DNA of 47,008 nucleotides, from the IMG/VR virus record IMGVR_UViG_3300045747_000694, positions 106,165 to 153,172 of that record, one strand, 5' to 3'. Position 1 is the first letter of the stretch. Each line of letters opens with the position of its first letter. Position numbers and translations under genes: made by a program. This stretch comes from a virus. This document shows, piece by piece, positions 8,607 through 29,400 of the stretch. Below the pieces are notes generated by a model. It worked only from the letters and a program-made list of their open reading frames with translations, had not been told where the DNA came from and ran no database searches.

Positions 8607-9464
8607 ATGATCGAGGTCTCGGACACAAGTCCGGACCTGGACTGGGTCCTGGGGAAGCTCGCGGCCGCCAAGAAGGCGCCTCCAGCTTCCCCTGCGGCTT
8701 CTCCAGAGCAGAAGAAGCTGGATCTCCGGGCGAAGCAGCCGAAGGAGCTCGAGCTCTGGAAGGCGTGGAAGGATGGCGGCCAGAAGCCCCACCTCCTCGA
8801 GCCCCTGCTGAAGTCCTTCGCCCCGCTCATCAACTCGCGCATCAACCTCTACAAGAGGGCGGAGATCCCCACCGCGGCGCTCGAGCAGGAACACCACAAG
8901 TGGTTCCTGAAGGGGCTTCAGACCTTCGACCCCTCCAAGGGCGCGGCGCTCAACACGCACCTCACCACCAACCTGAAGAAGGCCGGGCGGTGGATCGAGG
9001 CCAACAAGAACTTCGCGTACATCCCCGAGAACGTCTCGCGCAACATCGGCGCCTACAAGAACTTCAAGGGCGAGCTGGCGGACCGGCTGGGCTACGAGCC
9101 GGACGACAAGACCATCCTCGACTTCGCCATCAAGGAGAAGCACCCGAAGCTGGGTGTGCTCTCCTTGAAGGACATCAAGCGCATCAACACGGACCAGCGC
9201 AAGGGCCTCATCGAGAAGGGGCACGAAGACGACCTCCTCTCCAACAGCGGGATCGACCCGCGCGAGGTCGAGGTGGCTCACCTCATCATCCCGCAGCTCA
9301 CCCCGCAGGAGCGGCTGGTTCATGAGCACACGCTGGGGCTGAACGGGAAGGCGCAGCTCAAGCCGGGCGACATCGCCAAGAAGCTGAAGATGGACAACTC
9401 CAAGGTGGCGAAGCTGCGCTCCGCGATCTGGAACAAGATGAAGCCGTACCTGGGCGAGTCATGA
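8607..9464 (+). CDS. Sigma-70 family RNA polymerase sigma factor (phage-encoded; regions 2 and 4 recognisable)
   Basis: Region-2-like segment ELELWKAWKDGG...LLEPLLKSFAPLINSRINLYKR. C-terminal region-4 helix-turn-helix LTPQERLVHEHTLGLNGKAQLKPGDIAKKLKMDNSKVAKLRSAIWNKMKPYL. Confidence 0.8.
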   Translation: MIEVSDTSPDLDWVLGKLAAAKKAPPASPAASPEQKKLDLRAKQPKELELWKAWKDGGQKPHLLEPLLKSFAPLINSRINLYKRAEIPTAALEQEHHKWFLKGLQTFDPSKGAALNTHLTTNLKKAGRWIEANKNFAYIPENVSRNIGAYKNFKGELADRLGYEPDDKTILDFAIKEKHPKLGVLSLKDIKRINTDQRKGLIEKGHEDDLLSNSGIDPREVEVAHLIIPQLTPQERLVHEHTLGLNGKAQLKPGDIAKKLKMDNSKVAKLRSAIWNKMKPYLGES

Positions 9465-10567: not shown

Positions 10568-13500
10568 GTGGCTCTCCGCATCCCGAAGTTCATCCAGGAC
10601 CTGCTCAACGTCCCCACCGGGGCGCCGAACCACTACCTGCGATGGGACCCGCTGGCCAAGGAGATCATCAACGACCCTGGCCTCGGGGGCGGCGGCATCG
10701 GACCAGAGGGTCCCGCAGGTGCGACCGGTCCGCAGGGCGTTCCTGGCGTCACCGGTCCTCAAGGCCCGCAGGGACCAACGGGAGCCGTCGGTGCTACCGG
10801 CGCCGGCGTCACCGGCCCTCTCGGCCCGCAGGGTGCGACGGGCGCTCAAGGCGTCATCGGTCCGACGGGGGCACGGGGTCAGACTGGTGCCCAAGGTGAT
10901 GTCGGTCCCATCGGGCCGACTGGCGCTCAGGGTCCTCAAGGGGACCAGGGTGCGACCGGCCCTGTCGGCGCTGACGGCCCGCAGGGAGTGACTGGTGCGA
11001 CCGGTCCCGTTGGTCCTCAAGGCCAGACGGGGGCCGCCATCACGGGAGCTCAGGGTCTGCCCGGCGCGACAGGTCCGACCGGAGCAACGGGGGCGCGCGG
11101 CGCCACCGGCGTGACTGGGTCGGTCGGTCCGCAGGGGCCGACCGGAGCCGCCATCACTGGGGCGCAGGGGCCACAGGGAGTCACCGGTCCGACTGGCCCG
11201 ACCGGTGCCGTGGGCCCGCAAGGGCCGACTGGCGCCGCCATCACCGGGGCGGCCGGGCCGCAAGGGGTGACGGGCGCCACCGGTCCCACGGGGCCGCAGG
11301 GCCCCACCGGCGCGGCCATCACCGGAGCGACTGGCGTCACCGGCGCCCGCGGCGCCACGGGCGTGACCGGAGCCACTGGCCCAGCTGGTGCCACGGGTGC
11401 GACCGGCCCGGCCGGGCCGCAGGGTGTCACTGGCGCCACCGGGCCTACCGGCGCCGTCGGTCCGCAGGGGTCGACTGGCGCGGCCATCACGGGAGCACAA
11501 GGACCGCAGGGAGCCACCGGCGTGCCGGGCGTCACCGGCGCCACCGGGCCGATGGGCCCGGGCAGCCCCTCCGCCGGACCGACGGGAGCGCAGGGCGCCA
11601 CCGGCCCAGCTGGGCCGCAGGGCGTGACGGGTGCCACTGGCCCGACGGGGCCGAAGGGCGACACGGGAGCGGCCATCACCGGGGCAGCTGGCGTGACCGG
11701 CGTCACGGGCCCTGCCGGCCCGCAAGGCGTCACGGGGGCCACGGGCCCCACTGGCGCTCGCGGCGCGACCGGCGTCGACGGCGTCACGGGAGTGACTGGC
11801 CCAACGGGGGCTCGAGGTGCGACCGGCGTCGATGGGGTGACGGGCGCTACCGGGCCGACGGGTGCTCGCGGCGTCACGGGGGCGACCGGCCCAACAGGTG
11901 CTCCAGGCGTCCAGGGCGTCACGGGGGCGACCGGGCCGACCGGGGCGCAGGGAATCCAGGGGGTGACTGGGGCCACCGGTCCTACGGGCTCTCAGGGCCC
12001 TCAGGGGGTCACTGGCTCGACGGGTCCGACCGGGGCACCTGGCCCGCAGGGCGCGACCGGGCCAACTGGCCCGACAGGTGCGGTCGGTCCCCAGGGACCC
12101 ACGGGTGCCGCCATCACCGGAGCTGTGGGTCCGACGGGACCGGCCGGGCCAACCGGGCCGAAGGGTGACACCGGCGCCGCCATCACCGGCGCGCAGGGCG
12201 CCACCGGCGTTCAGGGGGTCCAGGGAGCCACGGGGCCCACCGGGCCCGCCGGCACGCAAGGGGTCACCGGCGCGACCGGGCCCACCGGGCCCGCCGGAGC
12301 TCAGGGTGCTACCGGTGCGACTGGGCCAGTTGGTCCGCAAGGTCCGACGGGTGCCGCGATCACGGGCGCCACCGGGCCGCAGGGGCCGCAAGGCAACCCC
12401 GGCGTCACGGGGCTCACCGGTGCGACAGGGCCGCAGGGATCGCAGGGCCCCACGGGAGCTCTCGGCCCCACCGGTCCTGCCGGTTCACAGGGAGTGACTG
12501 GCGCTACTGGTCCGACCGGAGCGCAGGGTCTTCAGGGCGCCACCGGGGCGACAGGTCCGACTGGGCCAGCGGGAGCGCAGGGGGTCACTGGCGCAACCGG
12601 CCCGACGGGCCCAGCTGGCGCGCAAGGGGTCACTGGTGCTACGGGGCCGACGGGACCGCAGGGCGTGCAGGGACCGACGGGCTCGGCCATCACCGGCGCA
12701 ACGGGGCCGGCTGGCCCGCAGGGACCGACAGGCACGCAGGGCATCACCGGGGCCACGGGACCGACCGGCCCTCAGGGCACGCAAGGCGTGACCGGGGCGA
12801 CCGGCCCGACCGGGCCGGCAGGCGCGCAGGGAGTCACCGGAGCTACTGGCCCGACTGGTCCCGCTGGTACGCAGGGCGTGACTGGGTTCACGGGCCCCGT
12901 CGGTCCTCAGGGTCCGACGGGAGCGGCTATCACTGGCGCTACCGGCCCTGTTGGTCCTCAGGGCCCGACCGGAGCGCAGGGCATCACCGGCGTCACCGGT
13001 GTCACCGGACCCACAGGTGCTCAGGGGCCTGCGGGCCCGACAGGGGCACAGGGGGTCACCGGGCTCACTGGGCCTGTCGGCCCGCAGGGGCCGACAGGTG
13101 CTGCCATCACGGGAGCCACCGGGCCCACCGGAGCGATCGGGCCTCAGGGTGTGACGGGGGCAACCGGGCCAACGGGCCCCGCGGGCGCAACCGGCGCAAC
13201 CGGCGTGACCGGCGCGCGAGGCGCGACAGGCATCACCGGAGCTACCGGACCCACGGGGCCTGCCGGTCCTCAAGGAGTGACCGGAGCCACCGGCCCTACC
13301 GGCCCGGGCGGCCCCACCGGCTCAGTCGGACCGCAGGGCGTCACCGGGGCAACGGGGCCCACCGGTCCGGCTGGTGCCGACGGTGCGACTGGCCCTGCTG
13401 GTGCCGGTCTCGATGGCGCCACTGGACCTATCGGTCCGGCCGGCGCTACTGGGGCGACCGGGCCAGCTGGTCCTCAGGGTGTCACGGGAGCAACGGGACC

Positions 13501-14371
13501 AACCGGGCCCGCCGGAGCAACCGGTGCGACCGGCGTGACGGGAGCTCGAGGCGCGACCGGGGTCACGGGAGCCACTGGCCCGCAGGGCTCTCCTGGCCCA
13601 ACGGGCGCCGCGATCACGGGAGCCATCGGACCGCAAGGCGTGACTGGCTGGACTGGCCCTGTCGGGCCGCAGGGTCCCACCGGAGCAGCCATCACTGGTG
13701 CAACCGGTCCTGCTGGTCCGACAGGTGCGACTGGCGCGATTGGGCCGACCGGTCCTGCCGGCAGCGGCGCAGTGAAGACGCTGAACCAGGCCTACTGGGA
13801 CGGCGGTACCGGCCCCGGCGGCGTGGGCGGAGAGATCGACCTCAACGCCACCATCGGACCGGTACGCCTCATCGGCTCCGGTGCGGCATCCGGCGGCGTC
13901 TACTTCCAGGTGGCAGACGCCGCCGGCGGCCTGCCTCTCTTCGAGGTGCGCGAGGGCGGTGGCCGCGGCGTCATCATGATCCCGCGCATCGAGCTCGGCG
14001 GCACGCCCCTCACCCCGGCCAACTTCTCGCTCTCTCGTTGGGGCTCGGGTGCGTCTTCCCCCGGCAACTACGGCGTGACGGGAGTCTCCTGCTCCGACGC
14101 CGGCGGGTCGTTCACCGTCGTCGCGGGGCAGACGGGGTACTCGCCAGCGCCCCAGATCACCATCAACTTCAAGGATGGTCCTCGAGCGGGCAACCCCTTC
14201 GTCCTCGCTCGCGTGATGAACCCGTGCATCCCTACGAACGCGAGCCTCTGGGGCTACAGCGTCATCAACCCGGTGCTCATCACCCAGAGCCCGACCTTCA
14301 TCACGATGATGATCCCGGGCTCCCCCACGAACCGCTGCTCCATCACCATCCAGTTCGTCTCCTTCGCATAA
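10568..14371 (+). CDS. Collagen-like fibre protein (1267 aa): about 1060 aa of Thr-rich Gly-X-Y repeats plus a roughly 200-aa beta-rich C-terminal globular domain (BclA-like architecture)
   Basis: Continuous G-P/A/V-T/Q triplets ([13 protein letters not shown]...). A recurrent GAAITGA interruption occurs about 14 times. Non-collagenous C-terminus begins around [18 protein letters not shown] start with an AGAGG RBS. Confidence 0.9.
10700..13760 (+). repeat. Triplet (9/18-nt) coding tandem repeats encoding the Gly-X-Y collagen-like region
   Basis: Reiterated GGN-CCN/GCN/GTN-ACN/CAG units. They create spurious long ORFs in all six frames. Confidence 0.85.
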
Positions 14372-14416: not shown

Positions 14417-15073
14417 ATGGAGCTCCGCTCGTCATCCTTCCGCGGGAAGGACTTCAAGTTCCAATGCGATCCCGAGGATCACTCCTCGCATTGGACCTTT
14501 GAAGACGAGAGGGGCGTTCGAGACGAGCTCTGGGACGTCCACGAGGGCGACATCATCCTCGACGTAGGAGCTGCTTTCGGTTCCTATGCGCTCTCCGCCC
14601 TGGCCGTCGGCGCTTCCTTCGTGCACTCCTGGAGCATGGAGACGCACCATCAGATCATGATGGAAGAGTCGCTCAAGGCGAACAGGTGGGAGAAGCGGTG
14701 CACCGTCAACCGCTTCGGTCTCTTCCACCGCCCAGGCTGGTACCGCTGGCAGGACCGCAGGTTCTCGGAGACTCCCGAAGAAGGCTTCGTGGTGGTCGAC
14801 TCCATCGACCACATGATGGAGGACCCAGAGCTCTTCCCCTACGGTCCTCGCTACTTCATCAAGATCGACACCGAGGGGGCCGAGCCGGAGATCCTCAAGG
14901 GGGCCGAGAAGTTCCTCGAAGTCCACCGCCCCAACATCTTGGTGGAGAACCACGACTTCCTTCGTCCACACGCCACCTCTTTGGTGCGCGAGTACCTCGC
15001 AGAGCAGGGGTTCGAGCTGAGCGTCGACCGCCCCTCCGCCATGTGTTCCCACTCTCTGTACCTCCCAGACTAA
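14417..15073 (+). CDS. FkbM-family SAM-dependent methyltransferase
   Basis: Motifs ILDVGAAFGSYAL (SAM-binding G-loop) and YFIKIDTEGAEPEILKGAEKFL, typical of the FkbM methyltransferase domain. Confidence 0.75.
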   Translation: MELRSSSFRGKDFKFQCDPEDHSSHWTFEDERGVRDELWDVHEGDIILDVGAAFGSYALSALAVGASFVHSWSMETHHQIMMEESLKANRWEKRCTVNRFGLFHRPGWYRWQDRRFSETPEEGFVVVDSIDHMMEDPELFPYGPRYFIKIDTEGAEPEILKGAEKFLEVHRPNILVENHDFLRPHATSLVREYLAEQGFELSVDRPSAMCSHSLYLPD

Positions 15074-15100
15074 CTGCCCGCACTTGATCGGAAGGGCTAC

Positions 15101-18100
15101 ATGACCGTCTCGCTTTGCATGATCGTGCGCGACGTCGAAGAGCACCTCGACGCCTGCCTGGCCTCGGTGGAGAAGTACGTCGACGAGATCGTCATCGTCG
15201 ATACCGGGTCGGTGGATGGGACGAAGGCTGTGGCGCTGCGGCACGGTGCCAAGATCTTCGACTTCAGCCCGGAGACCAACCCCGAAGCCTTCCTGCTCGA
15301 CGATGAGAAGACGATGGCTCCTCCTCCCTACACGGGGAAGTGGATCCTCGCCGACTTCGCCGGCGCGAGGAACCTCTCGTTCGACAAGGCGACCAGCGAC
15401 TTCGTCTTCTGGATCGACTCCGATGATGTCGTGGTGGGTGCCGAGAACATCCCCTCCATCCTGAAGGAGCTCGAGGGGATGCAGATGGGATGTGCCTGGT
15501 TCCGCTACGACTACGCCTTCTCTCCCGACGGGCAGCCTACCTGCCAGCTCTGGCGAGAGCGGATCATGCGGAAGGGCGCGGGAAGGTGGACGAACCCCAT
15601 CCACGAGGTCTGCATCCCCACGCAGGGGTCCGTCAGCAAGAACTACGACTTCGTCGTCATCAAGCACCAGAGGGACGACAACAAGACGCCCGCGGTGGCA
15701 CACCGCAACTACAAGGTGCTGAAGAGGCAGTACGAGAAGGAGAAGGGCGCCAAGAACTTCGACGCCAGGACGCTCTTCTACCTGGGCAACGAGTCGAAGT
15801 TCATGAACGCCGACGAGGCCATCGGCTACTTCGAGCAGTACCTGCGCCTCTCGGGATGGGACGAGGAGCGCGCTGTGGCGCGGATCCTCATGGGCCAGCT
15901 GTTCGAGGTGAAGGGCGACATCGAGGGGGCCTTCCGCGCCTACTCTTCCGCGACCTACGACTACCCCTTCAACCCCGATCCGTACTTCGCCCTCGCCCGT
16001 CTCGCCTACAAGAAGGACGACTGGAGGAAGTGCATCGACTTCACCGAGCACGGGCTGTCCAAGGGGAACCCGCACTCGGCCATCATGTACAACCCCCTCG
16101 ACCGGAACTACTACCCGCACACCTACTACAACGTCGCCCTCAACAACGTGGGCCGGGTGGCTGATGCGGCGAAGTCCTGCGAGGAAGGCCTCAAGTCCGT
16201 TCCGGAAGACACCAACCTCAAGTTCAACAAGCATCTCTACGACGACTACCTGAAGAGGAACCCGCAGCCGGAGAAGCAGGCGACCGCGCAGTCGATCACC
16301 TTCGACGGCGCCTCCATCGACTCTCCGCCCAACCTGCCTTCCGGTGTCGTCGCGACGCTGGGTCTCCAGATCTGGAAGGAGCTGCTTCGCTACGACGAGG
16401 TGGTGAAGGCGCGGACCTTCCTCGAGTCCCTTCCCTATGTCACCGAGGGGAGCGAGGGACTCGAGAAGGCGAAGAAGCTCACCGACGAGATCCTCGAGTT
16501 CGCCACCTCGCCAACCAAGATGCAGGCGCAGTACAACGACTGGCATCACGTCGACGAGGCCATCCCCTTCACGGCACAGGTGCCGAAGCACTGGTCTCAG
16601 TACCCGCGCTTCAGCTCGGTCATGGCGTTCTTCGAGGGGAAGTCGAAGCTGCGGGTCCTCGACATCGGCTGCCAGGACGGCTGGATCTCGAACCGTGTCG
16701 CGCGTCTCGGCCATTCGGTGGTGGGTCTCGACTTCAGCCAGGCCTACCTCGAGATCGCCAAGAGGAACGCCCGGTGCGAAGGGCTCGATGCCACCTACAT
16801 CCTCGGCTTCATCGAGGAGCTCTCCAAGGCGGTCCCTGAGAAGTACGACGTCGTCATCTGCACGGAGGTCATCGAGCACTCCGCGGACCCGGACAAGCTC
16901 ATCAGGGACATCAAGCGTGTGCTGAAGCCGGGCGGGACGCTTCTGCTCTCGACGCCGAAGGGGCACTGGTTCCAGGGGCAGGCGCATGAGTTCGCTTCGG
17001 CATGGAACGCGCCTCGTCAGCACATCCAGGCCTTCACCGTGAAGTCGCTCTCCAAGGTCCTGGGGAACCATCTCCACGTCACCTCCTGCTACGAGATGCC
17101 GGTCCCCACGCCGGACGTCCCTGGGCAGGGCACTCTCTTCGCCGAGGCGGTCTTCGAGATCACCCTCGAGAAGGGCGGGCAGGACATCGTCTTCTACACG
17201 GGGCCAGCGTGGGAGTGGTGGAACGCCAACAGCCCCTACCGAGAGGGGACGGGAGGCTCCGAGCTGGCCTGTGTGGAGATGGCGAAGTCCTTCGCGAGGA
17301 TGGGGCACAGGGTCAGGGTCTACAGCGACTGCCCGGGGATGGAGGGCATCTACGACGAGGTCGAGTACCTGCACTTCTCCCACGCGCAGCCTGGGACCAT
17401 CACCTGCGACGTCTTCATCAGCTCGAGGCAGCCCACTGTTCTCCCGGCGCTCCAGCTCACCGCCAAGGCGCGGATCCTCTGGGTGCACGACATCCACGTG
17501 GGCGCCCCAGGATCGCAGCTGCATGAGGCCCTGCTCCACTACGACAGGATCTTCTGCCTCTCCAAGTGGCATCGCGACTACTTCCTCAGCGTCTACCCCT
17601 TCCTCGACCCGGAGAAGGTGGTCGTCTCGAGGAACGGCATCCTCATCGAGCGCTTCCCCTGTGCCGAGCACGCCAAGGAGAACAAGCTCATCTACACCTC
17701 CTCTGGCAACCGCGGCCTCGAGCTGCTGCTCGACCTCTTCCCCCGCATCAGGGAGAAGGTCCCTGACGTCGAGCTCGAGGTCTACTACGGCTTCAACGTG
17801 TGGAAGTCGGCGGCCAGGAACAGCCCCGACGAGATGGCTCAGATCGAGCGCATCGAGCAGAAGATGAAGAACACTCCCGGCGTCATCACGATGGGCCGGG
17901 AGAACCAGCAGGGGCTTGCCAAGGCCTGGCTTCAGGCCAAGGTCTGGGCCTACCCGACCTGGTTCACCGAGACCTACTGCATCTCGGCCCTCGAGGCACA
18001 GGCTGCCGGCGCCGTCCCCGTGACCACGAACCTCGCAGCCCTCGGGGAGACCGTGCAGTCCGGCTTCCTCCTCAGTCCTCCTCTCAACGAGGAGTACAAC

Positions 18101-18286
18101 AAGGACTTCGTGGACTCGGTGGTGGAGCTGCTCACGGACGAGGAGGAGCGGCAGAAGCACGTCAAGATCGGAAGAGAGGCGGCCGAGAAGCTCACGTGGA
18201 GCAGCTTGGCCCTCGACTGGCGCAAGCAGTTCGATGAGGTGATCGAGGCGGTGAAGGTGAACCCCATCCACAGGTATATGCCATGA
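15101..18286 (+). CDS. Trifunctional glycosylation enzyme: N-terminal GT2 glycosyltransferase, TPR-like linker, class I SAM methyltransferase, C-terminal GT4 (GT-B) glycosyltransferase
   Basis: GT2 signature: IVRDVEEHLDACLASV...IVIVDTGSVDGT and a DSDD (DxD) motif. Methyltransferase motif I VLDIGCQDGWIS and ...VLKPGGTLLLSTP. GT4-like C-terminus: GGSELACVEMAKSFARMGHRV and EAQAAGAVPVTTN. Confidence 0.85.
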   Translation: MTVSLCMIVRDVEEHLDACLASVEKYVDEIVIVDTGSVDGTKAVALRHGAKIFDFSPETNPEAFLLDDEKTMAPPPYTGKWILADFAGARNLSFDKATSDFVFWIDSDDVVVGAENIPSILKELEGMQMGCAWFRYDYAFSPDGQPTCQLWRERIMRKGAGRWTNPIHEVCIPTQGSVSKNYDFVVIKHQRDDNKTPAVAHRNYKVLKRQYEKEKGAKNFDARTLFYLGNESKFMNADEAIGYFEQYLRLSGWDEERAVARILMGQLFEVKGDIEGAFRAYSSATYDYPFNPDPYFALARLAYKKDDWRKCIDFTEHGLSKGNPHSAIMYNPLDRNYYPHTYYNVALNNVGRVADAAKSCEEGLKSVPEDTNLKFNKHLYDDYLKRNPQPEKQATAQSITFDGASIDSPPNLPSGVVATLGLQIWKELLRYDEVVKARTFLESLPYVTEGSEGLEKAKKLTDEILEFATSPTKMQAQYNDWHHVDEAIPFTAQVPKHWSQYPRFSSVMAFFEGKSKLRVLDIGCQDGWISNRVARLGHSVVGLDFSQAYLEIAKRNARCEGLDATYILGFIEELSKAVPEKYDVVICTEVIEHSADPDKLIRDIKRVLKPGGTLLLSTPKGHWFQGQAHEFASAWNAPRQHIQAFTVKSLSKVLGNHLHVTSCYEMPVPTPDVPGQGTLFAEAVFEITLEKGGQDIVFYTGPAWEWWNANSPYREGTGGSELACVEMAKSFARMGHRVRVYSDCPGMEGIYDEVEYLHFSHAQPGTITCDVFISSRQPTVLPALQLTAKARILWVHDIHVGAPGSQLHEALLHYDRIFCLSKWHRDYFLSVYPFLDPEKVVVSRNGILIERFPCAEHAKENKLIYTSSGNRGLELLLDLFPRIREKVPDVELEVYYGFNVWKSAARNSPDEMAQIERIEQKMKNTPGVITMGRENQQGLAKAWLQAKVWAYPTWFTETYCISALEAQAAGAVPVTTNLAALGETVQSGFLLSPPLNEEYNKDFVDSVVELLTDEEERQKHVKIGREAAEKLTWSSLALDWRKQFDEVIEAVKVNPIHRYMP

Positions 18287-19425
18287 AGTTCGCCCTCATC
18301 TACGGTCGCTTCTGCTCCGCCGCCCGAGGCCCCTACAAGGCCCACGACATCGCCAGCCACGGCCTGACTGGCTCGGAGAGCTTCTACTTCAACACGGTGA
18401 AGGCGCTCTCCGAGGCTGGGCACACCGTCGACGCCTTCGGGTGGTGGGAGAAGGAGCACGTGGACGGCCTCGTCCACTACTACCCCTTCACCAAGAACGG
18501 GGACGACATGCACGTCCCCGATCCCGCGTCCTACGACGTGGCCATCGCATGGAGCGAGCCGGACTACCTTCGCGTCTTCCCCCCGACCGTTCTTCGGATC
18601 TGCGAGCAGCAGCTCAACGACTTCCCCTACGCCGGCGAGGGCTTCGAGAAGAGCGTCGATCTCTTCCTGTTCCCCTCCGACACCCACCGGAAGCACATCC
18701 TCTCCGTCACCCCCTGCATCGACCCGGCGAAGACGGACGTCTGGGGCAACTGCATCAGCAACGAGGACTACTTCACGGGGGAAGAGAAGGCTCGCGGGAA
18801 GAGCATCACCTACTGCTCCTCTCCGGACCGGGGACTGCACTGGCTCTGCGAGCTCTTCCCCCGGGTGAGGGCGAAAGTTCCCGAAGCCACCCTGCACGTG
18901 TACTATCGCTTCATGCCGTGGTACCAGCAGATGGCTGGTGAGTGGAACCCCGGCAACCCGGCCGCGCACCAGCAGGGCATGCGGGCCAGGTACGCGGGGT
19001 CGTTCTTCTACAAGATGGGAGCGATGGGAGAGAGCGGGGTCTTCTTGCACGGGGCAGTCACCAACCAGCAGATGGTCGCTGCCCTGGAGAGCTCTCGAGT
19101 CCTCGCGTATCCCTGTGACCCCGTCGTCTTCACCGAGGGCTTCGGGGTTTCCGTCCTCGATGCCTGCGCTGCTGGCGCCATCCCCATCATCAGCGACGTC
19201 GACGCGTTTGGAGAGGTCTACGGCGGCACGGCCATGGTCATCCCGGGACGGCCTGGCGACCACCGGGACGAGTGGGTCGCTGCGATGGTGAAGGCCCTCA
19301 CCGATGACGACCTCCAGAAGGAAGTCACCACCAGGTGCAGGGCCTTCTCGAAGAAGTTCACGAGGAAGGCCAGGGTGAAGCAGCTGCTCAAGATCATCTC
19401 CTCCCTGAAGAAGGCTGCCGCATGA
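18283..19425 (+). CDS. GT4-family (GT-B fold) glycosyltransferase
   Basis: ATGA overlap with the upstream gene. GT4-like segment VLAYPCDPVVFTEGFGVSVLDACAAGAIPIISDVDAFGEV. Confidence 0.75.
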   Translation: MKFALIYGRFCSAARGPYKAHDIASHGLTGSESFYFNTVKALSEAGHTVDAFGWWEKEHVDGLVHYYPFTKNGDDMHVPDPASYDVAIAWSEPDYLRVFPPTVLRICEQQLNDFPYAGEGFEKSVDLFLFPSDTHRKHILSVTPCIDPAKTDVWGNCISNEDYFTGEEKARGKSITYCSSPDRGLHWLCELFPRVRAKVPEATLHVYYRFMPWYQQMAGEWNPGNPAAHQQGMRARYAGSFFYKMGAMGESGVFLHGAVTNQQMVAALESSRVLAYPCDPVVFTEGFGVSVLDACAAGAIPIISDVDAFGEVYGGTAMVIPGRPGDHRDEWVAAMVKALTDDDLQKEVTTRCRAFSKKFTRKARVKQLLKIISSLKKAAA

Positions 19426-20909
19426 AGGGCGCTCTCGTCATCCCACCCTCCGCCTTCCTGCTCGACGCGAGGGTCTTCGTCAGTCTGGGCATCCTGAAGG
19501 TCGCCGCGGCGCTCGAGGCGAGAGGGGTCATGGTGGACGTCATCGACCTCTCCGGGGTCGCCAACTACAAGGACGCCCTCAGCGACTACCTCCACAACTC
19601 TCGGCCGGAGTGGGTCGGCATCACGGCGACGACTCCGCAGATGCCCTACGTCACGGAGCTCTCCCGGCTGGTCCGCTCTCACGGGGCCAAGGCCATCCTG
19701 GGCGGCCCGCACCCCACCCTCACCAACGCGGCCTACAAGAACGAGAAGAAGCTCCACCGTTCTGGCCGTGGGGGCAAGGCTTGGGAGCAGCTCCTCGAGG
19801 AGTTCGATGTCGTCGTGACCGGGGATGGGGAGAAGGCCATCTTCGAGGCCATCGACAAGAGCTGCGGCCACGTCGATGCCGACGATCCGAGAAGCGAGCT
19901 GTGGGTCTCCGAGAAGGAGATGATGGACCTCCAGCCGGCCCGCCACCTGGTCGACCTCTCCAGCTACCACTACTCCATCGACGGGGAACGGGCGACGAGC
20001 CTCATCGGCCAGCTGGGCTGTCCCTTCCAGTGCGCCTTCTGTGGCGGCCGCGCCTCTCCGATGCTGCGGCGCTCGAGGGTGCGGACGGTGCCGGACATCA
20101 TCGCCGAGGTGGCCCACCTGCATGACCGGCACGGCTACAAGGGCTTCATGTTCTACGACGACGAGCTCAACGTCGCGAAGAGCATGCCAGCCCTCATGGA
20201 CGCCATCCACCTCCTGGCCGTGAGCCGCAAGACGGAGTTCCGCCTGAGGGGCTTCATCAAGGCCGAGCTCTTCACCGACGAGCAGGCAGCCTCCATGGTG
20301 AGGGCCGGGTTCAAGTGGATCCTGGTGGGCTTCGAGTCGGGGTCGCCGAGGATCCTGGAGAACATCCGGAAGCAGGCCACCGTCGAGGACAACACCCGCT
20401 GCCTCGAGATCGCCAGGCGCCACGGGCTGAAGGTGAAGGCCCTGATGTCCATCGGCCACGCTGGCGAGTCGGCCGAGACCATCGCCGAGACGCAGGCCTG
20501 GCTCCTCAAGATGATGGTGGACGACTTCGACGCCACCATCATCACCACCTACCCCGGCACGCCCTACTACGACGAGGCCTACGAGTCGTCGGCAGGCATC
20601 TGGACCTACCAGGCCAAGGGCGGGGACAAGCTGCACGCCTACGCTCTCGACTACTCGAAGGTCTCCGACTACTACAAGGGCGACCCCAACGCCGGCTACA
20701 AGGCGTACGTCTTCACCGACCACCTCTCTTCCGAGGACCTTGTAGGTCTTCGTGGGCAATTGGAGCAGAAGGTAAGGACGGAGCTTTCTATTCCCTTCTA
20801 CCCAGGCGCGCCTGCGGTACAGTACGAACATTCCATGGGGATGGCCGGGCTTCCCGACACCATCCTACGGTCCTCGCACTTCGCGACCGCGCAAGGAGTG
20901 GGGACATGA
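19422..20909 (+). CDS. B12-binding-domain radical SAM enzyme
   Basis: N-terminal Rossmann-like B12-binding region (KGALVIPP...LGILKVAAALEARGVMVDVIDL). Radical SAM CxxxCxxC motif (GCPFQCAFCGG). Start chosen at the ATGA overlap with the upstream stop rather than the longer in-gene track start. Confidence 0.8.
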   Translation: MKGALVIPPSAFLLDARVFVSLGILKVAAALEARGVMVDVIDLSGVANYKDALSDYLHNSRPEWVGITATTPQMPYVTELSRLVRSHGAKAILGGPHPTLTNAAYKNEKKLHRSGRGGKAWEQLLEEFDVVVTGDGEKAIFEAIDKSCGHVDADDPRSELWVSEKEMMDLQPARHLVDLSSYHYSIDGERATSLIGQLGCPFQCAFCGGRASPMLRRSRVRTVPDIIAEVAHLHDRHGYKGFMFYDDELNVAKSMPALMDAIHLLAVSRKTEFRLRGFIKAELFTDEQAASMVRAGFKWILVGFESGSPRILENIRKQATVEDNTRCLEIARRHGLKVKALMSIGHAGESAETIAETQAWLLKMMVDDFDATIITTYPGTPYYDEAYESSAGIWTYQAKGGDKLHAYALDYSKVSDYYKGDPNAGYKAYVFTDHLSSEDLVGLRGQLEQKVRTELSIPFYPGAPAVQYEHSMGMAGLPDTILRSSHFATAQGVGT

Positions 20910-26477: not shown

Positions 26478-29400
26478 ATGGCACAGGCCGAACTGAAGAC
26501 CTTCGTAGAGGACCGCCTTCAGGCGCTGGTCCCAGGCATCGACGTCTCGGCCGGGTCTCCCGCGCAGACGACCTTCGTCGATCCGCTGATGCAGTACCTC
26601 GGGACCGACCCCTTCGAGACGGACATCGACAAGTTCCTCTCGGACCGCTTCCGCCAGGAGTACCCCGACATCTACGCCGGCGACCCGAGCGCCATCCGCG
26701 ACCTCTTCGTGAAGCCGCTCATCACCTTCCTCGAGCCCATCAAGCGGGAGATCCTGACCGTCCGCAGGAACCAGTCGTTGCAGGACCCGGCGCTCCTCTC
26801 GGACGACGATGCCGATGCGCTGGTGGCCAACTTCTACGACCAGCGTGCGCAGGGCGCCCTCGCCGGCGGCACGGTCCGGGCCTACTACTCCAACCCCGCC
26901 AACGTCCCCATCGAGACCACGGTCCGCTTCTCCACGGCCGGCGGTCTCGCGTTCTTCCCTACGGCCCCCACCTCCATCACGGCGGAGGAGATGGTCTTCA
27001 ATCGGGACGGGACGCTCTACTACGCCGACATCCCGGTGAAGGCGGAGAAGGAGGGGGCCGCCTACAACGTTGGGGTCGGGACCATCGTCAACGTCGATGG
27101 CCTCTTCGGCATCGTGAAGGTCTCGAACCTCCAGGTCTTCCAGAGCGGGGCCGACAAGATCTCCACCGATGCCTTCGTCTCCCAGTCGCGCGAGGCACTG
27201 AACGAGCGGTCGCTGCTCAACCGCCGCGGCGCCGTGCCCCGGCTGCGGGATGCCTTCCCGGGCCAGCTGCGCGCCGTGCAGGTCATCGGGGCTCAGGACA
27301 AGGAGATGGAGCGCGACATCCTGGTGGGCCACACCAAGGGCCACACCTGGCTCACTGGCCGCGTCACCCTCTACGAGAGCATGGCCCTCGTGCAGGCTCG
27401 CACGGTCGATGATGGCGCCGAGTCGGCCCCCGTCGCCGGGGACACGCTCTACGTCTACCTCGACAAGACGACCTGGCCGTCCGGGATCTTGCAGAAGGAC
27501 AGGTTCGTGGAGCTCACCGTGGAGGAGACGATCCTCGACGGCATCGGCGGATCTGGGGCCTTCCAGTGCAGCTTCCTGGTGAGGTGGTCTGGCTCCCTCC
27601 CGACGGGCATCCTCGCTCCCCTGTCGGTGGAGGGGGGCTGCACGAGGAAGGGGACGATCTCCATCACCTCGATCCCAGGCATCGGAGCCCTCACGGCCGA
27701 TGTCCCGGACCAGTCGGTGCACATCTACGGGCACACCGACATCTACGTTCGCCCCACGGCCGACGTGGTGTCGAAGTCGGTGCTGTCTCCCGTCGTCGAC
27801 GCCTCCCCGGTCATGGAGTACACGACGCTCTCCACGGCGGCCACGGTGCCCACCAACTCGGTGCTGGACTCGGTGGGCCGAGACTTCGCGGTGGCCGGCG
27901 TCCTCCCCGGGGACGTCCTCTACATCGAGTCGAGTGACGCCGCGGGCACCTACACCATCGCCGACGTCACGGGGTCGGGTTCCGGATCGCGGCTCCTCCT
28001 CGCCACCAACATCGAGAGAGCGGCGACGAACGCCAGGTACCGGATCTCCCGTACCGTGAAGGTCGACCTCTTCAGCCCCAAGATCCCCAAGCTCCCCTTC
28101 TCCAACCTGCCGGCGGACGACCTCACCACGCAGATCGGGTCGCTGCTCTTCTCCTTCTCCACGAACACCGTCGACTACGGCGTCCGCATCGGGGACACGG
28201 TCCGCGTCACCTCGGGTCCGGACGTCGGGGACTTCACGATCACCGGCTTCGACGGCGTCCTCGGGGGCCGTGGGGTTCTCGTGGACCGTCGGGCCACGGC
28301 ATCCGTGGCCGGGGTCAAGTACGAGATCTTCACGCTCCTGGAGCCGGTGCAGAAGCCCCTCATCCGCCTCAAGGAGGTCATGCTCCTCGACTCCTCCAAG
28401 AAGGCCACGGGGGTCACGGTGCCTCCGGCGCTTCCGGTAGCGGTGCGGTCCCTGAGCGACTTCACCTCGGCCAGCGCCAAGGGGCGCAGCTACCAGAACG
28501 GCGGCATCGTCCTCCCGAAGCTCGACACGCTCTTCACCACGACGAACGTGCCCGCCATCAACGGGGACATGCGCTACTCGACGGGGAGTGAGCCGGCCGA
28601 CGGGGGCTCCTACAAGGCGTTCGAGCTCAACTACTCCGGGCATGTGGAGGGAGAGATCCTCGTCCCCTCCTCGGCCTACTCGGAGTGCTCCTGGTTCCTC
28701 GCCCTGGTGGAGGACGTCGATGCCGTCAGCGGGAAGCCGCCGGTGGTCTTCGAGGTTGGCGGAGTGCTCAACCTCTTGAGCGGGCCGAACAAGGGCGGCT
28801 ACCTCATCCGCGAGGTGAAGAAGGTCAGGTACTACCCGATCGCCACGCCGACCGTCCCCTACTGGCTCACCTTCGTCCGGATCCATGGGACGTTCCCGGT
28901 CGACACCTTCCGCTCGGTGATCGACTTCATCGCAGCCAACCCTGTGCCCATCACCGGCTTCCCCGGCATCCCGACACTGCGTGCCGAGATCGACGGGACT
29001 CCCGTGCTCGAGACGTGGTTCGGCGACTTCTGGGCCAACCTCCCGACCTGGGTGAACGGCTCCATCGGCCTGCTTGGCGGGTCCCCTCCCAGCACGACAG
29101 TGGCAGCCATCGACACGCTCCTGGCGACGGACTACGAGGTGGGCACTCCTGCGCGGGGCATCCTCCGCTCCTACTTCCAGCAGCCTACCCTCTTCACGCA
29201 GAACACCGCCGGGTCCCCGACCCCCACCGTCTACGACTTCAAGGCCGTCACGGGGGACATCCTCTCCTTCCGCCCGGACCCCTTCCGCTACGAGGAGCAG
29301 AACATCCTCCCGGCGCGCGAGGTCTCGGACGTCGACGTGTTCAGCTCCCCTCGAGACGTGCTGCCGTCGGTTCCGACGGCAGCCTCTGGGACGTCGGCCG

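What the first reader, a model, noticed from the sequence alone, without database searches (positions are those of the whole stretch)
10700..13760. Regularly spaced GAAITGA breaks in the collagen triple-helix repeat
The Gly-X-Y periodicity is interrupted about 14 times by the same heptad (…[10 protein letters not shown]…). Each break shifts the Gly register by two residues. Interruptions that are this regular suggest either tandem duplication of a 30-90-residue super-repeat, or designed kinks or register shifts in the fibre. The same unit recurs at the DNA level.
Basis: seen in the sequence. Interest (0 to 1): 0.5.

Follow-up and report, generated by a model that had tools for sequence, protein, structure and literature searches.

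The report
Conserved GAAITG breaks in phage collagen fibre
A roughly 290-nm collagen-like fibre protein of an uncultured ~200-kb phage carries 14 copies of one stereotyped two-residue "stutter" (Gly-Ala-Ala-Ile-Thr-Gly) that selection keeps at the protein level, is irregularly spaced, and is a known class of collagen interruption in an unusually uniform form.

Summary
The core observation is real. ORF 10568..14371 (+), 1267 aa, has a 1022-residue Gly-X-Y domain broken 14 times by G-[A/S]-A-I-T-G (13 GAAITG, 1 GSAITG). Each break adds two residues. "Regularly spaced" is wrong: gaps run from 23 to 169 residues and cannot be told apart from random placement (P=0.13).

The breaks are neither recent tandem duplications nor assembly artefacts. 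Their codons are synonymously scrambled, flanking DNA is only 56-77% identical, and the orthologue ORF differs by 1 nt in 3666 between two separately deposited contigs.

The motif is conserved in two orthologues (12-14 copies, 9-10 at aligned positions) and in other collagen-like fibre ORFs on related contigs. Two unrelated metagenomic contigs carry it as a strict 14-residue repeat.

In 150 other long microbial collagen-like proteins, four-residue breaks follow the same grammar: G-x-[S/A]-[I/V/F]-[T/S]-G.

Best reading: these are selected G4G-type interruptions in a homotrimeric, probably glycosylated, phage fibre stalk. They would be compact local perturbations, braced in this family by a Pro-rich N-terminal flank, that give bending points and penalise chain slippage. 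The structural and functional parts of this reading are inferred, not shown.

This is a new variant of a known kind and of moderate interest.

The parts
10568..14371 (+). Collagen-like fibre gene, 1267 aa (GTG start)
   Evidence: ORF list. Pfam Collagen E=2.4e-122. Orthologous ORFs at L001 7355..11020 and L003 5948..10549.
10568..10699 (+). N-terminal non-collagen segment (aa 1-44), probable virion-attachment end
   Evidence: Nearly identical in L003 and similar in L001. aa 10-36 weakly match (59% identity, E=3e-4) a repeated motif inside the virion-associated tail protein gp317 of Caulobacter phage phiCbK. No PHROG hit.
10700..13765 (+). Gly-X-Y domain, aa 45-1066 (1022 aa, about 292 nm if fully triple-helical)
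   Evidence: Composition: Gly 32.6%, Thr 18.5%, Ala 15.6%, Pro 13.7%, and only 20 charged residues.
11030..11047 (+). G4G break 1, GAAITG (aa 155-160)
11144..11161 (+). G4G break 2, GAAITG (aa 193-198)
11231..11248 (+). G4G break 3, GAAITG (aa 222-227)
11309..11326 (+). G4G break 4, GAAITG (aa 248-253)
11477..11494 (+). G4G break 5, GAAITG (aa 304-309)
11666..11683 (+). G4G break 6, GAAITG (aa 367-372), preceded by GPKGDT
12104..12121 (+). G4G break 7, GAAITG (aa 513-518)
12173..12190 (+). G4G break 8, GAAITG (aa 536-541), preceded by GPKGDT
12350..12367 (+). G4G break 9, GAAITG (aa 595-600)
12680..12697 (+). G4G break 10, GSAITG (aa 705-710)
12920..12937 (+). G4G break 11, GAAITG (aa 785-790)
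13097..13114 (+). G4G break 12, GAAITG (aa 844-849)
13604..13621 (+). G4G break 13, GAAITG (aa 1013-1018)
13682..13699 (+). G4G break 14, GAAITG (aa 1039-1044)
10799..10816 (+). Variant break GAGVTG (aa 78-83). Formally G1G, but the same pattern with the second Ala changed to Gly.
   Evidence: GAGITG and GAGVTG are also seen in L001 and L003.
13400..13417 (+). Variant break GAGLDG (aa 945-950)
11555..11578 (+). Second conserved composite break GPGSPSAG (aa 330-337, within [12 protein letters not shown])
   Evidence: The same string occurs in L001, in L003 (twice), in L074 and in L118.
13301..13312 (+). Minor break GPGG (aa 912-915)
13766..14371 (+). C-terminal globular domain (aa 1067-1267), predicted all-beta; candidate trimerisation and receptor-binding end
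   Evidence: Five homologues only, at 52-100% identity. Alignment A1. The AF2 model has only beta strands but pLDDT 44.7. No PDB sequence match, no Pfam or PHROG hit.

Best explanation
Gene 10568..14371 encodes a long fibre protein of an uncultured phage with a genome of about 200 kb. It has a short N-terminal attachment segment, a 1022-residue collagen-like stalk, and a C-terminal beta-rich head. The stalk is Thr-rich and nearly uncharged, and is probably O-glycosylated by the adjacent enzymes.

The 14 GAAITG elements are G4G-type interruptions, meaning four non-Gly residues between two Gly. In a homotrimer they fall at the same sequence position in all three chains (commensurate), so the triple helix can resume with the normal one-residue stagger on the far side.

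The proposed mechanism is inferred. Each break is a compact, defined local perturbation rather than a floppy linker. The small residue at break position 2 (Ala) and the beta-branched hydrophobic residue at position 3 (Ile, where a Gly would normally sit) pack near the helix axis. In this phage family the local loss of stability is offset by three Pro-containing triplets on the N-terminal side (G-P-x-G-P-Q-G-P-T), and in two cases by a KGD triplet.

The proposed benefits are twofold. First, the breaks give discrete points of bending or azimuthal phase shift, on average every ~20 nm, along a ~290-nm rod. Second, they punctuate a low-complexity Gly-x-Thr sequence. Any out-of-register annealing of the three chains then puts Gly out of phase between every pair of displaced breaks, so it is penalised in proportion to the number of breaks.

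Shown: presence of the breaks, their invariance, selection at the protein level, conservation in relatives, and the general sequence grammar. Inferred: trimer formation, the local structure, and the flexibility and register functions.
For: 1. The motif is real and non-random: 14 copies, with 13 DNA-pattern matches against 0.02 expected.

2. Selection acts on the protein. All four Gly codons, three to four Thr codons and up to four Ala codons are used among copies, while T-G-A-A-I-T-G-A stays invariant apart from one Ala-to-Ser. Flanking DNA identity is 50-77%.

3. The motif is conserved across relatives. The orthologues carry 14 (L001) and 12 (L003) such breaks. 9-10 of 16 breaks align with breaks in pairwise global alignments, although overall identity is only 70-74%. 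Further collagen-like fibre ORFs with other terminal domains carry the same break: L074 and L017 on L003's 198-kb contig, and L118/L142 on a separate 20.5-kb contig.

4. An extended context is conserved in 60 unique instances. Pro at the X position of the three upstream triplets is 73-82% against a 36% background (p = 4e-9 to 5e-13). Ala right after the break is 95% (p = 5e-22).

5. The only two Lys in the 1022-residue stalk lie in KGD triplets directly before a break. Malcor et al. 2025 (PMC11923368) report that KGD and KGE triplets cluster next to interruptions, most strongly in viruses.

6. The motif recurs independently. Contigs L119 and L140 (GC 0.54-0.56) carry [14 protein letters not shown] as a 42-nt repeat, 21-24 copies at 72-77% DNA match. 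Single GAAITG breaks occur in other collagen-like ORFs, including a Babeliales MAG.

7. There is a general grammar. In 77 unique G4G breaks from 150 long collagen-like proteins, position 2 is S/A in 79% (background 18%, p = 6e-32). Position 3 is I/V/F in 75% (background 14%, p = 4e-34). Position 4 is T/S in 77% (background 51%).

8. Literature supports accommodation of such breaks. A four-residue natural interruption from collagen IV alpha5, placed in bacterial collagen Scl2, gave only a small perturbation and stayed trypsin-resistant, meaning the helix was still tightly packed. Natural interruptions are linked to flexibility (review PMC10765305, summarising Hwang & Brodsky 2012).

9. The context fits a virion fibre. 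A Baseplate_J / wedge-like protein lies at 26478-30941. The N-terminus weakly matches the phiCbK tail protein. The N-terminal part of L074 hits PHROG tail-spike and virion-structural families.
Against: - There is no structural or biophysical evidence. Trimerisation, continuity of the helix through the break, and bending are all untested.
- Many collagen-like proteins longer than 2000 aa in the sample have no breaks at all. Breaks are therefore not needed for length as such.
- Break number and spacing vary among orthologues, so exact position along the fibre is not critical. That weakens any precise 'barcode' idea.
- The Pro-rich flank is specific to this phage family and not general.
- The C-terminal domain could not be modelled (pLDDT 44.7). 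Its role as a trimerisation nucleus, and hence the folding direction, is assumed.
- Invariance of all four break residues is stronger than a simple hinge would seem to need, which leaves room for a recognition function.
Confidence: 0.55

Rival explanations
1. The breaks are neutral relics. An ancestral Gly-X-Y module that happened to contain GAAIT was duplicated many times. The copies persist because the break is tolerated, not because it is useful.
For: - Module lengths recur: 26 aa (twice), 29 aa, and 56-59 aa (three times).
- TRF finds one 87-nt two-copy repeat spanning two breaks, plus many old 45-, 54- and 90-nt repeats.
- Collagen-like genes are known to evolve by repeat expansion.
Against: - Copies are saturated with synonymous differences, yet the five residues plus the flanking T and G-A are 95-100% invariant in 60 unique instances. 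Ordinary X and Y positions top out at 36-53%.
- The motif is retained in orthologues only 70-74% identical overall.
- The same motif or grammar occurs in unrelated lineages with different GC content.
- A 6-nt deletion would restore perfect Gly-X-Y, yet the breaks are not lost.
Confidence: 0.12
2. The breaks are recognition or modification sites. They could be docking or sequon-like marks for the adjacent glycosyltransferase and methyltransferase enzymes, or binding sites for another virion or host component. Any structural perturbation would be secondary.
For: - The gene is followed directly by an FkbM-type methyltransferase, a 1061-aa GT2-TPR-methyltransferase-GT4/GT1 protein, a GT1, and a B12-binding radical-SAM enzyme. 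The GT2-TPR-methyltransferase-GT4/GT1 protein, the GT1 and the radical-SAM enzyme keep this order in the orthologous loci (L001-L003); the FkbM gene is in L001/L002 but was not called in L003.
- All four break residues are invariant, which is more than a hinge needs.
- A locally opened helix would expose the backbone and the Thr side chain.
Against: - Thr occupies about half of all Y positions, so acceptor sites are plentiful without breaks.
- The same G-x-[S/A]-[I/V/F]-[T/S]-G grammar appears in 24 diverse proteins. Whether they have similar enzymes nearby was not examined.
- Nothing links these enzymes to this substrate except adjacency.
Confidence: 0.15
3. The breaks are a sequencing or assembly artefact in a repetitive GC-rich region, such as collapsed repeats or indel errors.
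For: The region is 75-79% GC and repetitive. Public gene callers fragmented or mis-framed the gene.
Against: - The reading frame is open for 1267 codons through all 14 breaks.
- Each break is an in-frame 6-nt difference with varied codons.
- No repeats exceed about 82% identity, so there is little to collapse.
- Separately deposited contigs L001 and L002 agree at 3665 of 3666 nt.
- Related contigs from other samples and records carry the same motif.
Confidence: 0.02
4. Break-rich stretches do not form a collagen triple helix at all. They adopt another fibrous fold, such as a polyproline-II bundle or a beta-structure, and GAAITG is a turn or core element of that fold.
For: - In L119 and L140 the break recurs every 14 residues, with only three triplets between breaks. 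That is short for independent triple-helical segments.
- L001 contains one 14-residue spacing, and so do the L074 and L017 ORFs.
Against: - In the window, inter-break segments have 6 to 54 perfect triplets and match Pfam Collagen very strongly.
- The composition (Pro at X 40%, Thr at Y 52%) is typical of bacterial and viral triple helices (PMC11923368).
Confidence: 0.08

Closest known systems
G4G-type natural interruptions of animal non-fibrillar collagens, for example the four-residue break of the collagen IV alpha5 chain. GnG nomenclature is from Bella 2014, as used in PMC11923368. The model studies by Mohs et al. 2006, Thiagarajan et al. 2008 and Hwang & Brodsky 2012 are cited in PMC10765305 and PMC11923368.
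   Same: Four non-Gly residues lie between two Gly, inside otherwise regular Gly-X-Y. The break is commensurate if the molecule is a homotrimer. From my memory, not verifiable here, the studied alpha5(IV) break is G-A-A-V-M-G. That is the same small-small-beta-branched-hydrophobic pattern as G-A-A-I-T-G. Such breaks are reported to be accommodated with a small local perturbation (PMC10765305).
   Different: Animal collagens carry many different interruption sequences. Here one sequence is reused 14 times in one chain. The host protein is a viral, Hyp-free, Thr-rich and almost uncharged collagen-like stalk. Conserved (GPx)3 flanks are present in this family.
Collagen-like tail-fibre proteins of E. 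coli O157 prophages, EPclA-D (Ghosh et al. 2012, PMC3368898)
   Same: A phage-encoded trimeric fibre design with a collagen stalk between globular N- and C-terminal domains, the C-terminal one serving as a trimerisation module. They have a conserved, stereotyped interruption, and their domains are shuffled in a modular way.
   Different: EPcl collagen domains are short (the longest is 322 aa) and have at most a single break, of a different type (G-x-P-G-G-P-x-G). They carry PfN, PfC and Pf2 domains, none of which was detected here. The window protein has a 1022-aa stalk with 14 to 16 G4G breaks.
Thr-rich glycosylated bacterial collagen-like proteins of the BclA type (Bacillus exosporium), and giant-virus collagen-like fibrils. 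Named from general knowledge. Thr glycosylation of bacterial collagen-like proteins is noted in PMC11923368.
   Same: Gly-x-Thr-rich repeats, no hydroxyproline, a C-terminal beta-rich globular domain, and neighbouring glycosyltransferase and methyltransferase genes.
   Different: No sequence or fold relationship of the C-terminal domain could be established. Glycosylation is not shown. I know of no description of a repeated GAAITG-type break in those proteins, and a literature search for the string found nothing.
Stutters and stammers in alpha-helical coiled coils. [quoted passage not shown]
   Same: Short insertions or deletions in a periodic fibrous repeat shift the core-residue register and locally change supercoiling without ending the fibre.
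   Different: The fold is different (polyproline-II triple helix rather than alpha-helices). The structural effect of a G4G break on supercoil is not established.

Membership tests
Collagen triple-helix repeat protein (Pfam PF01391) | Gly at every third residue over long runs | tested here: met
   326 triplets lie in perfect runs of at least 4 triplets. Pfam Collagen E=2.4e-122, 399 bits against a cut-off of 27.2.
Collagen triple-helix repeat protein (Pfam PF01391) | Composition compatible with a stable triple helix (imino acid at X; stabilising Y residues) | tested here: met
   Pro occupies 40% of X positions; Thr 52% and Gln 21% of Y positions. TGP and TGA triplets are reported as typical of bacterial and viral collagen-like proteins (PMC11923368).
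Collagen triple-helix repeat protein (Pfam PF01391) | Three chains actually form a triple helix | not testable with these tools
   Needs CD, DSC, protease resistance or EM. The structure tool predicts single chains only.
G4G-type collagen interruption (GnG nomenclature) | Exactly four non-Gly residues between two Gly, flanked on both sides by regular Gly-X-Y triplets | tested here: met
   14 instances, each with at least 6 perfect triplets on either side apart from neighbouring breaks.
G4G-type collagen interruption (GnG nomenclature) | Commensurate: the same interruption at the same position in all three chains | not testable with these tools
   This follows if the fibre is a homotrimer of this one gene product. 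No second collagen-like ORF exists in the window, but the whole genome is not in hand, and a relative has at least three collagen-like fibre genes.
G4G-type collagen interruption (GnG nomenclature) | Helix continues through the break with a localised perturbation | not testable with these tools
   Only literature analogy is available (PMC10765305).
   Spacings are 23-169 aa, CV 0.69, not different from random placement (P=0.13).
   90-nt contexts are 50-77% identical with scrambled synonymous codons. The best break-spanning TRF array is 2 copies at 75%.
E. coli prophage EPcl collagen-like tail fibres | PfN (PF08400), PfC (PF06820) or Pf2 (PF03406) domains flanking the collagen domain | tested here: not met
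   Pfam scan of the full protein returns Collagen only. PHROG scans of the N- and C-terminal parts return nothing.
Phage tail or virion fibre (functional class) | Encoded in a virion-structural module and related to known fibre proteins | tested here: inconclusive
   A Baseplate_J / wedge-like gene lies 12 kb downstream. The N-terminus matches the phiCbK tail protein weakly (E=3e-4). The L074 ORF on L003's contig hits tail-spike PHROGs. The protein itself has no direct family hit.
BclA-like glycosylated collagen-like protein | C-terminal C1q/TNF-like jelly-roll trimerisation domain | tested here: inconclusive
   The AF2 model is all-beta but has pLDDT 44.7, so no fold search was attempted. No PDB sequence match at E<=1.
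BclA-like glycosylated collagen-like protein | O-glycosylated Thr in the repeats | not testable with these tools
   Only adjacency of glycosyltransferase and methyltransferase genes is available.

The most novel reading that the evidence does not exclude
G-x-[S/A]-[I/V/F]-[T/S]-G, with GAAITG as its commonest form, may be a discrete, self-contained structural module of microbial and viral collagen-like proteins. It would be a 'collagen stutter' with a defined packed geometry. Evolution would deploy it sparsely, as in this phage fibre, to set flexibility and chain register. It would also deploy it at a strict 14-residue period, as in L119 and L140, to build a triple-stranded fibre whose supercoil differs from canonical collagen. 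That would parallel the way regular stutters turn heptad coiled coils into hendecad ones.
Probability: 0.25. Interest if true: 0.6.

Novelty: new variant of a known kind. Interest (0 to 1): 0.4.

Why it matters
Interruptions in collagen are usually studied as heterogeneous, one-off features of animal non-fibrillar collagens or as disease mutations. Their structural consequences remain poorly defined, and no crystal structure of a G4G break is cited in the papers read here.

This phage family offers a natural system in which one break sequence recurs 12 to 16 times per chain. The break sits in a conserved context, in a Hyp-free collagen that should be expressible in bacteria. The same break also exists as a perfectly periodic 14-residue array elsewhere.

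That makes three questions directly testable with simple recombinant fragments:
- What does a G4G break look like?
- Does it bend the rod?
- Does it guard against chain slippage?

It also suggests a design element for engineered bacterial collagens.

For phage biology it flags a ~290-nm, probably glycosylated, collagen-like fibre that public gene calls have missed or mis-framed.

Tried and rejected
- Megablast and tblastn against 50,697 GenBank phages, using the downstream region, the C-terminal domain and the baseplate protein, found no match. The phage has no close cultured relative. Only a 27-residue N-terminal motif hit phiCbK-like phages.
- A word-indexed homologue search with a three-break segment was swamped by short generic collagen-like proteins. 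None carried GAAITG. I replaced it with degenerate DNA pattern scans and a full HMMER scan.
- The first viral-contig pattern (TGAAITGA without collagen context) returned mostly non-collagen chance hits. I then added flanking Gly codons to the pattern.
- AF2 on the C-terminal domain with 5 sequences gave pLDDT 44.7. I therefore ran no fold search. A PDB profile search found nothing.
- Pfam and PHROG scans of the inserted domains of L003 and L001 and of the extra 943-aa gene in L001 found nothing.
- Literature. The strings 'GAAVM' and 'GAAITG' are not retrievable in a collagen context. The primary papers PMC2738926 and PMC3281714 are not held. Supplementary interruption lists of PMC11923368 are not held. 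The GAAVM comparison therefore rests on memory.
- I considered and rejected DNA-level roles for the repeated GCCGCCATCAC string, such as a protein binding site or recombination signal, because the codons are degenerate among copies.
- I considered and rejected programmed frameshifting or an alternative frame, because the frame is open throughout and the other-frame ORFs are Arg/Ser/Trp-rich shadows.
- Triple-helix structure prediction was not possible, because the tool predicts single chains and only accepts window-derived sequences.

Full report
**1. What is at the coordinates**

The flagged interval 10700-13760 lies inside a single ORF, 10568..14371 on the + strand (GTG start, 1267 aa). Pfam assigns it to Collagen (PF01391) with E=2.4e-122 and finds nothing else.

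The Gly-X-Y domain runs from aa 45 to aa 1066 (nt 10700-13765). A 44-residue N-terminal segment precedes it and a ~200-residue Gly-poor C-terminal domain follows it.

The stalk is 32.6% Gly, 18.5% Thr, 15.6% Ala and 13.7% Pro. Pro sits in 40% of X positions and Thr in 52% of Y positions. Only 20 of the 1022 residues are charged. At 0.286 nm per residue, the textbook collagen rise, a continuous helix would be about 292 nm long.

The long ORFs in other frames and on the opposite strand are Arg/Ser/Trp-rich shadows of the GC-rich repeat.

**2. Checking the observation**

A residue-by-residue walk over Gly-to-Gly distances finds exactly 14 places where the distance is 5 instead of 3. The sequence is G-A-A-I-T-G in 13 cases and G-S-A-I-T-G in one. 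The positions are aa 155, 193, 222, 248, 304, 367, 513, 536, 595, 705, 785, 844, 1013 and 1039.

The back-translated pattern GGNGCNGCNATHACNGG matches 13 times in 47 kb, all in this gene. Dinucleotide shuffles predict 0.02 matches.

Other breaks exist. GAGVTG (aa 78) and GAGLDG (aa 945) look like variants of the same motif with the second Ala replaced by Gly. There is a composite break GPGSPSAG at aa 330 and a GPGG at aa 912.

**3. 'Regularly spaced' does not hold**

The spacings are 38, 29, 26, 56, 63, 146, 23, 59, 110, 80, 59, 169 and 26 residues. The mean is 68, the SD 47 and the CV 0.69. Random placement of the same number of breaks gives a mean CV of 0.91, and 13% of random placements are at least as even.

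Some module lengths recur: seven triplets after the break, and 17 to 18 triplets. That points to old duplications of break-containing modules, but there is no period.

**4. Not a recent duplication and not an assembly artefact**

In the 14 copies the Gly codons use all four synonyms, Thr uses three or four, and Ala uses up to four. Only Ile is always ATC, which I take to be the favoured Ile codon in so GC-rich a genome (not checked). The 90-nt contexts are 50-77% identical, about what shared Gly-Pro-Thr coding alone would impose.

TRF and the repeat finder report only arrays of 60-82% identity, with periods of 45, 54, 87 or 90 nt. A single two-copy 87-nt array (11129-11304, 75% identity) spans two breaks. 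Nothing in the gene is similar enough to collapse in assembly.

The orthologous ORF matches at 3665 of 3666 nt between two separately deposited contigs, an ENA contig (L001) and a JGI contig (L002).

**5. Relatives**

The C-terminal domain has only five homologues among 5.8 billion proteins. Three of them sit on contigs of 153, 196 and 198 kb, which indicates a phage with a genome near 200 kb. GenBank phages contain nothing close.

Public gene calls cover only the C-terminal 182-339 residues, or call a wrong-frame ORF across the repeat. Re-reading the DNA gives full orthologues:
- L001 7355..11020 encodes 1221 aa.
- L003 5948..10549 encodes 1533 aa.

The orthologues carry 14 (L001) and 12 (L003) breaks of the form G-[A/S]-A-[I/V/L]-T-G. 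They also carry GAG[IV]TG variants and the same GPGSPSAG break.

Global alignments are 70-74% identical overall. They place 9-10 of 16 breaks opposite breaks, while whole Gly-X-Y blocks have been gained or lost between them.

The stalk is modular. L003 has a 594-residue globular insert and L001 a 126-residue insert.

Scans for the back-translated motif found further collagen-like fibre genes with other terminal domains but the same GAAITG and [12 protein letters not shown] breaks. L074 and L017 lie on L003's 198-kb contig; L118 and L142 lie on a separate 20.5-kb contig. The N-terminal part of L074 matches PHROG tail-spike and virion-structural families at about 1e-10.

**6. The conserved context**

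I pooled 60 unique break contexts from these proteins. The break residues are 95-100% invariant: A 95%, A 100%, I 97%, T 100%. The residue after the closing Gly is Ala in 95% of cases (p = 5e-22).

The three upstream triplets have Pro at X in 82%, 73% and 82% of cases, against a 36% background (p = 5e-13, 4e-9 and 5e-13). The consensus is G-P-x-G-P-Q-G-P-T | G-A-A-I-T | G-A-x-G-P.

The only two Lys in the stalk lie in G-P-K-G-D-T immediately before a break. Malcor et al. (PMC11923368) report that KGD and KGE triplets, which form inter-chain salt bridges, are concentrated next to interruptions, most strongly in viral collagen-like proteins. This protein otherwise almost lacks that 'code'.

**7. 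The same break elsewhere, and a general grammar**

Pattern scans of metagenome and genome collections found GAAITG in collagen context in unrelated sequences.

Two contigs (L119 and L140, GC 0.54-0.56) encode [14 protein letters not shown] as a strict 42-nt repeat. There are 21-24 copies at only 72-77% DNA match, so selection is again acting on the protein. Single copies occur in other Thr-rich collagen-like ORFs, including one from a Babeliales MAG.

For a sample not selected on the motif, I used the 150 best hits of a full HMMER scan of 1.84 billion representatives. This sample holds 27,878 triplets, 551 short breaks and 81 G4G breaks (77 unique, from 24 proteins). Within these G4G breaks:

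| Break position | Residues | Observed | Background | p |
|---|---|---|---|---|
| 2 | Ser/Ala | 79% | 18% | 6e-32 |
| 3 | Ile/Val/Phe | 75% | 14% | 4e-34 |
| 4 | Thr/Ser | 77% | 51% | 4e-6 |

GAAITG is one of the two commonest individual sequences, at 5 of 81. No protein in that sample has five or more copies, and several proteins longer than 2000 aa have no break at all. G4G density in the window protein is about one per 23 triplets, against about one per 344 in the sample.

The upstream Pro clamp is not general.

**8. What it most likely is and does**

The breaks belong to a known class. In the GnG nomenclature (Bella 2014, as used in PMC11923368) they are G4G interruptions. They are commensurate if the fibre is a homotrimer.

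The review PMC10765305 summarises work in which a four-residue natural interruption of collagen IV alpha5 was inserted into the bacterial collagen Scl2. It caused only a small perturbation and stayed trypsin-resistant. The same review links natural interruptions to molecular flexibility and to folding delay.

From memory only, the alpha5(IV) break is G-A-A-V-M-G. That has the same small, small, beta-branched hydrophobic pattern. I could not retrieve the primary papers.

The grammar can be read as two triplets with the middle Gly deleted (G-X-Y-X'-Y'). Position 1 then behaves like an X residue (Pro or Ala) and position 4 like a Y residue (Thr). The two central residues must be small and hydrophobic, presumably because they sit near the axis where Gly is missing.

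The strong sequence specificity argues for a defined packed geometry rather than a floppy linker. The family-specific Pro-rich N-terminal flank and the two KGD triplets look like compensation for local instability. If folding zips from the C-terminal domain, as in animal collagens, the flank could also serve as a re-nucleation site.

I propose two benefits, both inferred:
- Discrete bending or phase-shift points along a very long thin rod.
- Punctuation of a low-complexity Gly-x-Thr sequence. A slip of s residues between chains would put Gly out of phase over s residues at every one of the 14-16 breaks, instead of costing only the ends.

**9. Rivals**

- **Neutral duplication relics.** These are disfavoured by the synonymous scrambling, the orthologue conservation and the independent recurrence.
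- **Recognition or modification sites.** This stays open. The gene is followed by an FkbM methyltransferase (14417-15073), a 1061-aa GT2-TPR-methyltransferase-GT4/GT1 protein (15101-18286), a GT1 (18283-19425) and a B12-binding radical-SAM enzyme. The GT2-TPR-methyltransferase-GT4/GT1 protein, the GT1 and the radical-SAM enzyme keep this order in the orthologous loci; the FkbM gene is called in L001/L002 but not in L003. However, Thr acceptors are everywhere in the stalk.
- **Assembly artefact.** This is very unlikely, as section 4 shows.
- **A non-collagen fold.** This is unlikely in the window, where inter-break segments have 6 to 54 triplets. It is a real question for the 14-residue arrays in L119 and L140.

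**10. Identity of the protein**

The protein is best described as a collagen-like virion fibre. A Baseplate_J / wedge-like gene lies at 26478-30941. The N-terminal aa 10-36 weakly match a motif repeated inside the virion-associated tail protein gp317 of Caulobacter phage phiCbK, a ~215-kb phage. Collagen-like ORFs on related contigs (e.g. L074) carry tail-spike-like domains.

It is not a member of the E. coli prophage EPcl family, because no PfN, PfC or Pf2 domains were found (PMC3368898). Those proteins have collagen domains of 322 aa or less, with at most one break of a different type.

The C-terminal domain could not be classified: AF2 gave pLDDT 44.7 and there is no PDB or Pfam hit.

**11. 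Verdict**

The 14 identical register-shifting breaks are real. Regular spacing and a DNA-level unit are not.

The super-repeat idea is rejected. A selected structural feature is supported by sequence evidence, but its mechanism is unproven.

The class of feature is known. The stereotyped, high-density use of one G4G sequence in a conserved context within a phage fibre family appears not to be described. The same applies to the apparent general grammar and to the 14-residue periodic form. A search for the string GAAITG found no paper, but the Bella 2014 census could not be read.

Interest is moderate, at 0.4.

Noticed in passing
window 14417-20909; also L001 13905-20397 and L003 10624-16432: Directly downstream of the collagen-like gene lie an FkbM-type methyltransferase, a 1061-aa fusion of GT2, TPR, class I methyltransferase and GT4/GT1 domains, a second GT1, and a B12-binding radical-SAM enzyme. 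All but the FkbM gene (not called in L003) keep this order in the orthologous loci. With Thr at about half of the Y positions, this suggests the fibre is O-glycosylated with a modified (methylated) sugar, as in BclA-type proteins. This is not shown.
   Followed up: partly
window 11555-11578 (aa 330-337); L001, L003 (twice), L074, L118: A second stereotyped composite break, [12 protein letters not shown] (a G1G followed by a G4G), is conserved almost letter for letter in both orthologues and in the related collagen-like ORFs L074 and L118. Its role is unknown.
   Followed up: partly
window 11654-11665 and 12161-12172 (aa 363-366 and 532-535): The only two Lys residues in the 1022-aa stalk are both in K-G-D triplets that immediately precede a GAAITG break. 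This fits the reported clustering of salt-bridge triplets next to collagen interruptions (PMC11923368).
   Followed up: partly
L119 983-1911 and L140 1752-2781 (metagenome contigs Ga0105239_10129315 and Ga0105239_10131350): An unrelated collagen-like protein family carries GAAITG at a strict 14-residue period ([14 protein letters not shown]), 21-24 copies at only 72-77% DNA match. L119 has an N-terminal hydrophobic segment and a C-terminal beta-like domain. With only three triplets between breaks, it may not be a canonical triple helix.
   Followed up: partly
proteins P0126-P0275: In 150 long microbial collagen-like proteins, four-residue breaks follow the grammar G-[P/A]-[S/A]-[I/V/F]-[T/S]-G. 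G1G breaks are the commonest class (286 of 551). Six-residue breaks such as G-A-A-S-T-V-T-G also recur in the pattern-selected loci. Several proteins longer than 2000 aa have no breaks at all.
   Followed up: partly
L001 7351-9063 and 10001-11020; L003 10001-10549; P0001 (the window's own source): Public gene calls for this gene family are wrong or fragmentary. Only the last 182-339 residues are called, and in L001 a 570-aa wrong-frame Arg/Ser/Trp-rich shadow ORF is called across the repeat. The collagen-like stalk is therefore largely absent from protein databases, which explains why protein-level searches found so few relatives.
   Followed up: yes
L003 6191-7969 (594-aa insert); L001 about aa 884-1009 (126-aa insert); L001 11030-13861 (extra 943-aa gene): Orthologues differ by large globular domains inserted into the collagen stalk and by an extra gene after it. 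None matches Pfam or PHROGs. This looks like modular exchange of receptor-binding or enzymatic modules on a common collagen scaffold.
   Followed up: partly
L074 and L017 (contig IMGVR_UViG_3300045971_000895, 198,259 bp); L118/L142 (contig Ga0315289_10004580, 20,566 bp): The related 198-kb contig encodes at least three different collagen-like fibre proteins that share the same break motifs but have different terminal domains. L074 and L017 share a motif (…AGAKLLS[IV]RNN.VEKFYVDKDGN…) just before the collagen part; in L074 that stretch (aa 269-311) hits a PHROG hyaluronidase family. A fourth such gene lies on a separate 20.5-kb contig (L118/L142).
   Followed up: partly
window 10595-10675 (aa 10-36) versus phiCbK NC_019405.1 73971-74051: The N-terminal segment resembles one copy of a motif (F.DL.[DN]VP…K.LR[VW]N….L..) that is repeated many times inside the 1412-aa virion-associated tail protein gp317 of Caulobacter phage phiCbK. 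This is the only link found to any cultured phage.
   Followed up: partly
window 8607-9464: A 285-aa protein upstream matches a PHROG RNA polymerase sigma factor family (E=2.6e-8). It has only a sub-threshold Pfam hit (Rubrerythrin, 20.2 bits against a cut-off of 22.8).
   Followed up: no
window 11001-14000: GC content rises to 75-79% across the collagen-like domain, against about 62-67% in the rest of the window. This is as expected from Gly (GGN), Pro (CCN) and Ala (GCN) codon content and is not a sign of foreign origin.
   Followed up: yes
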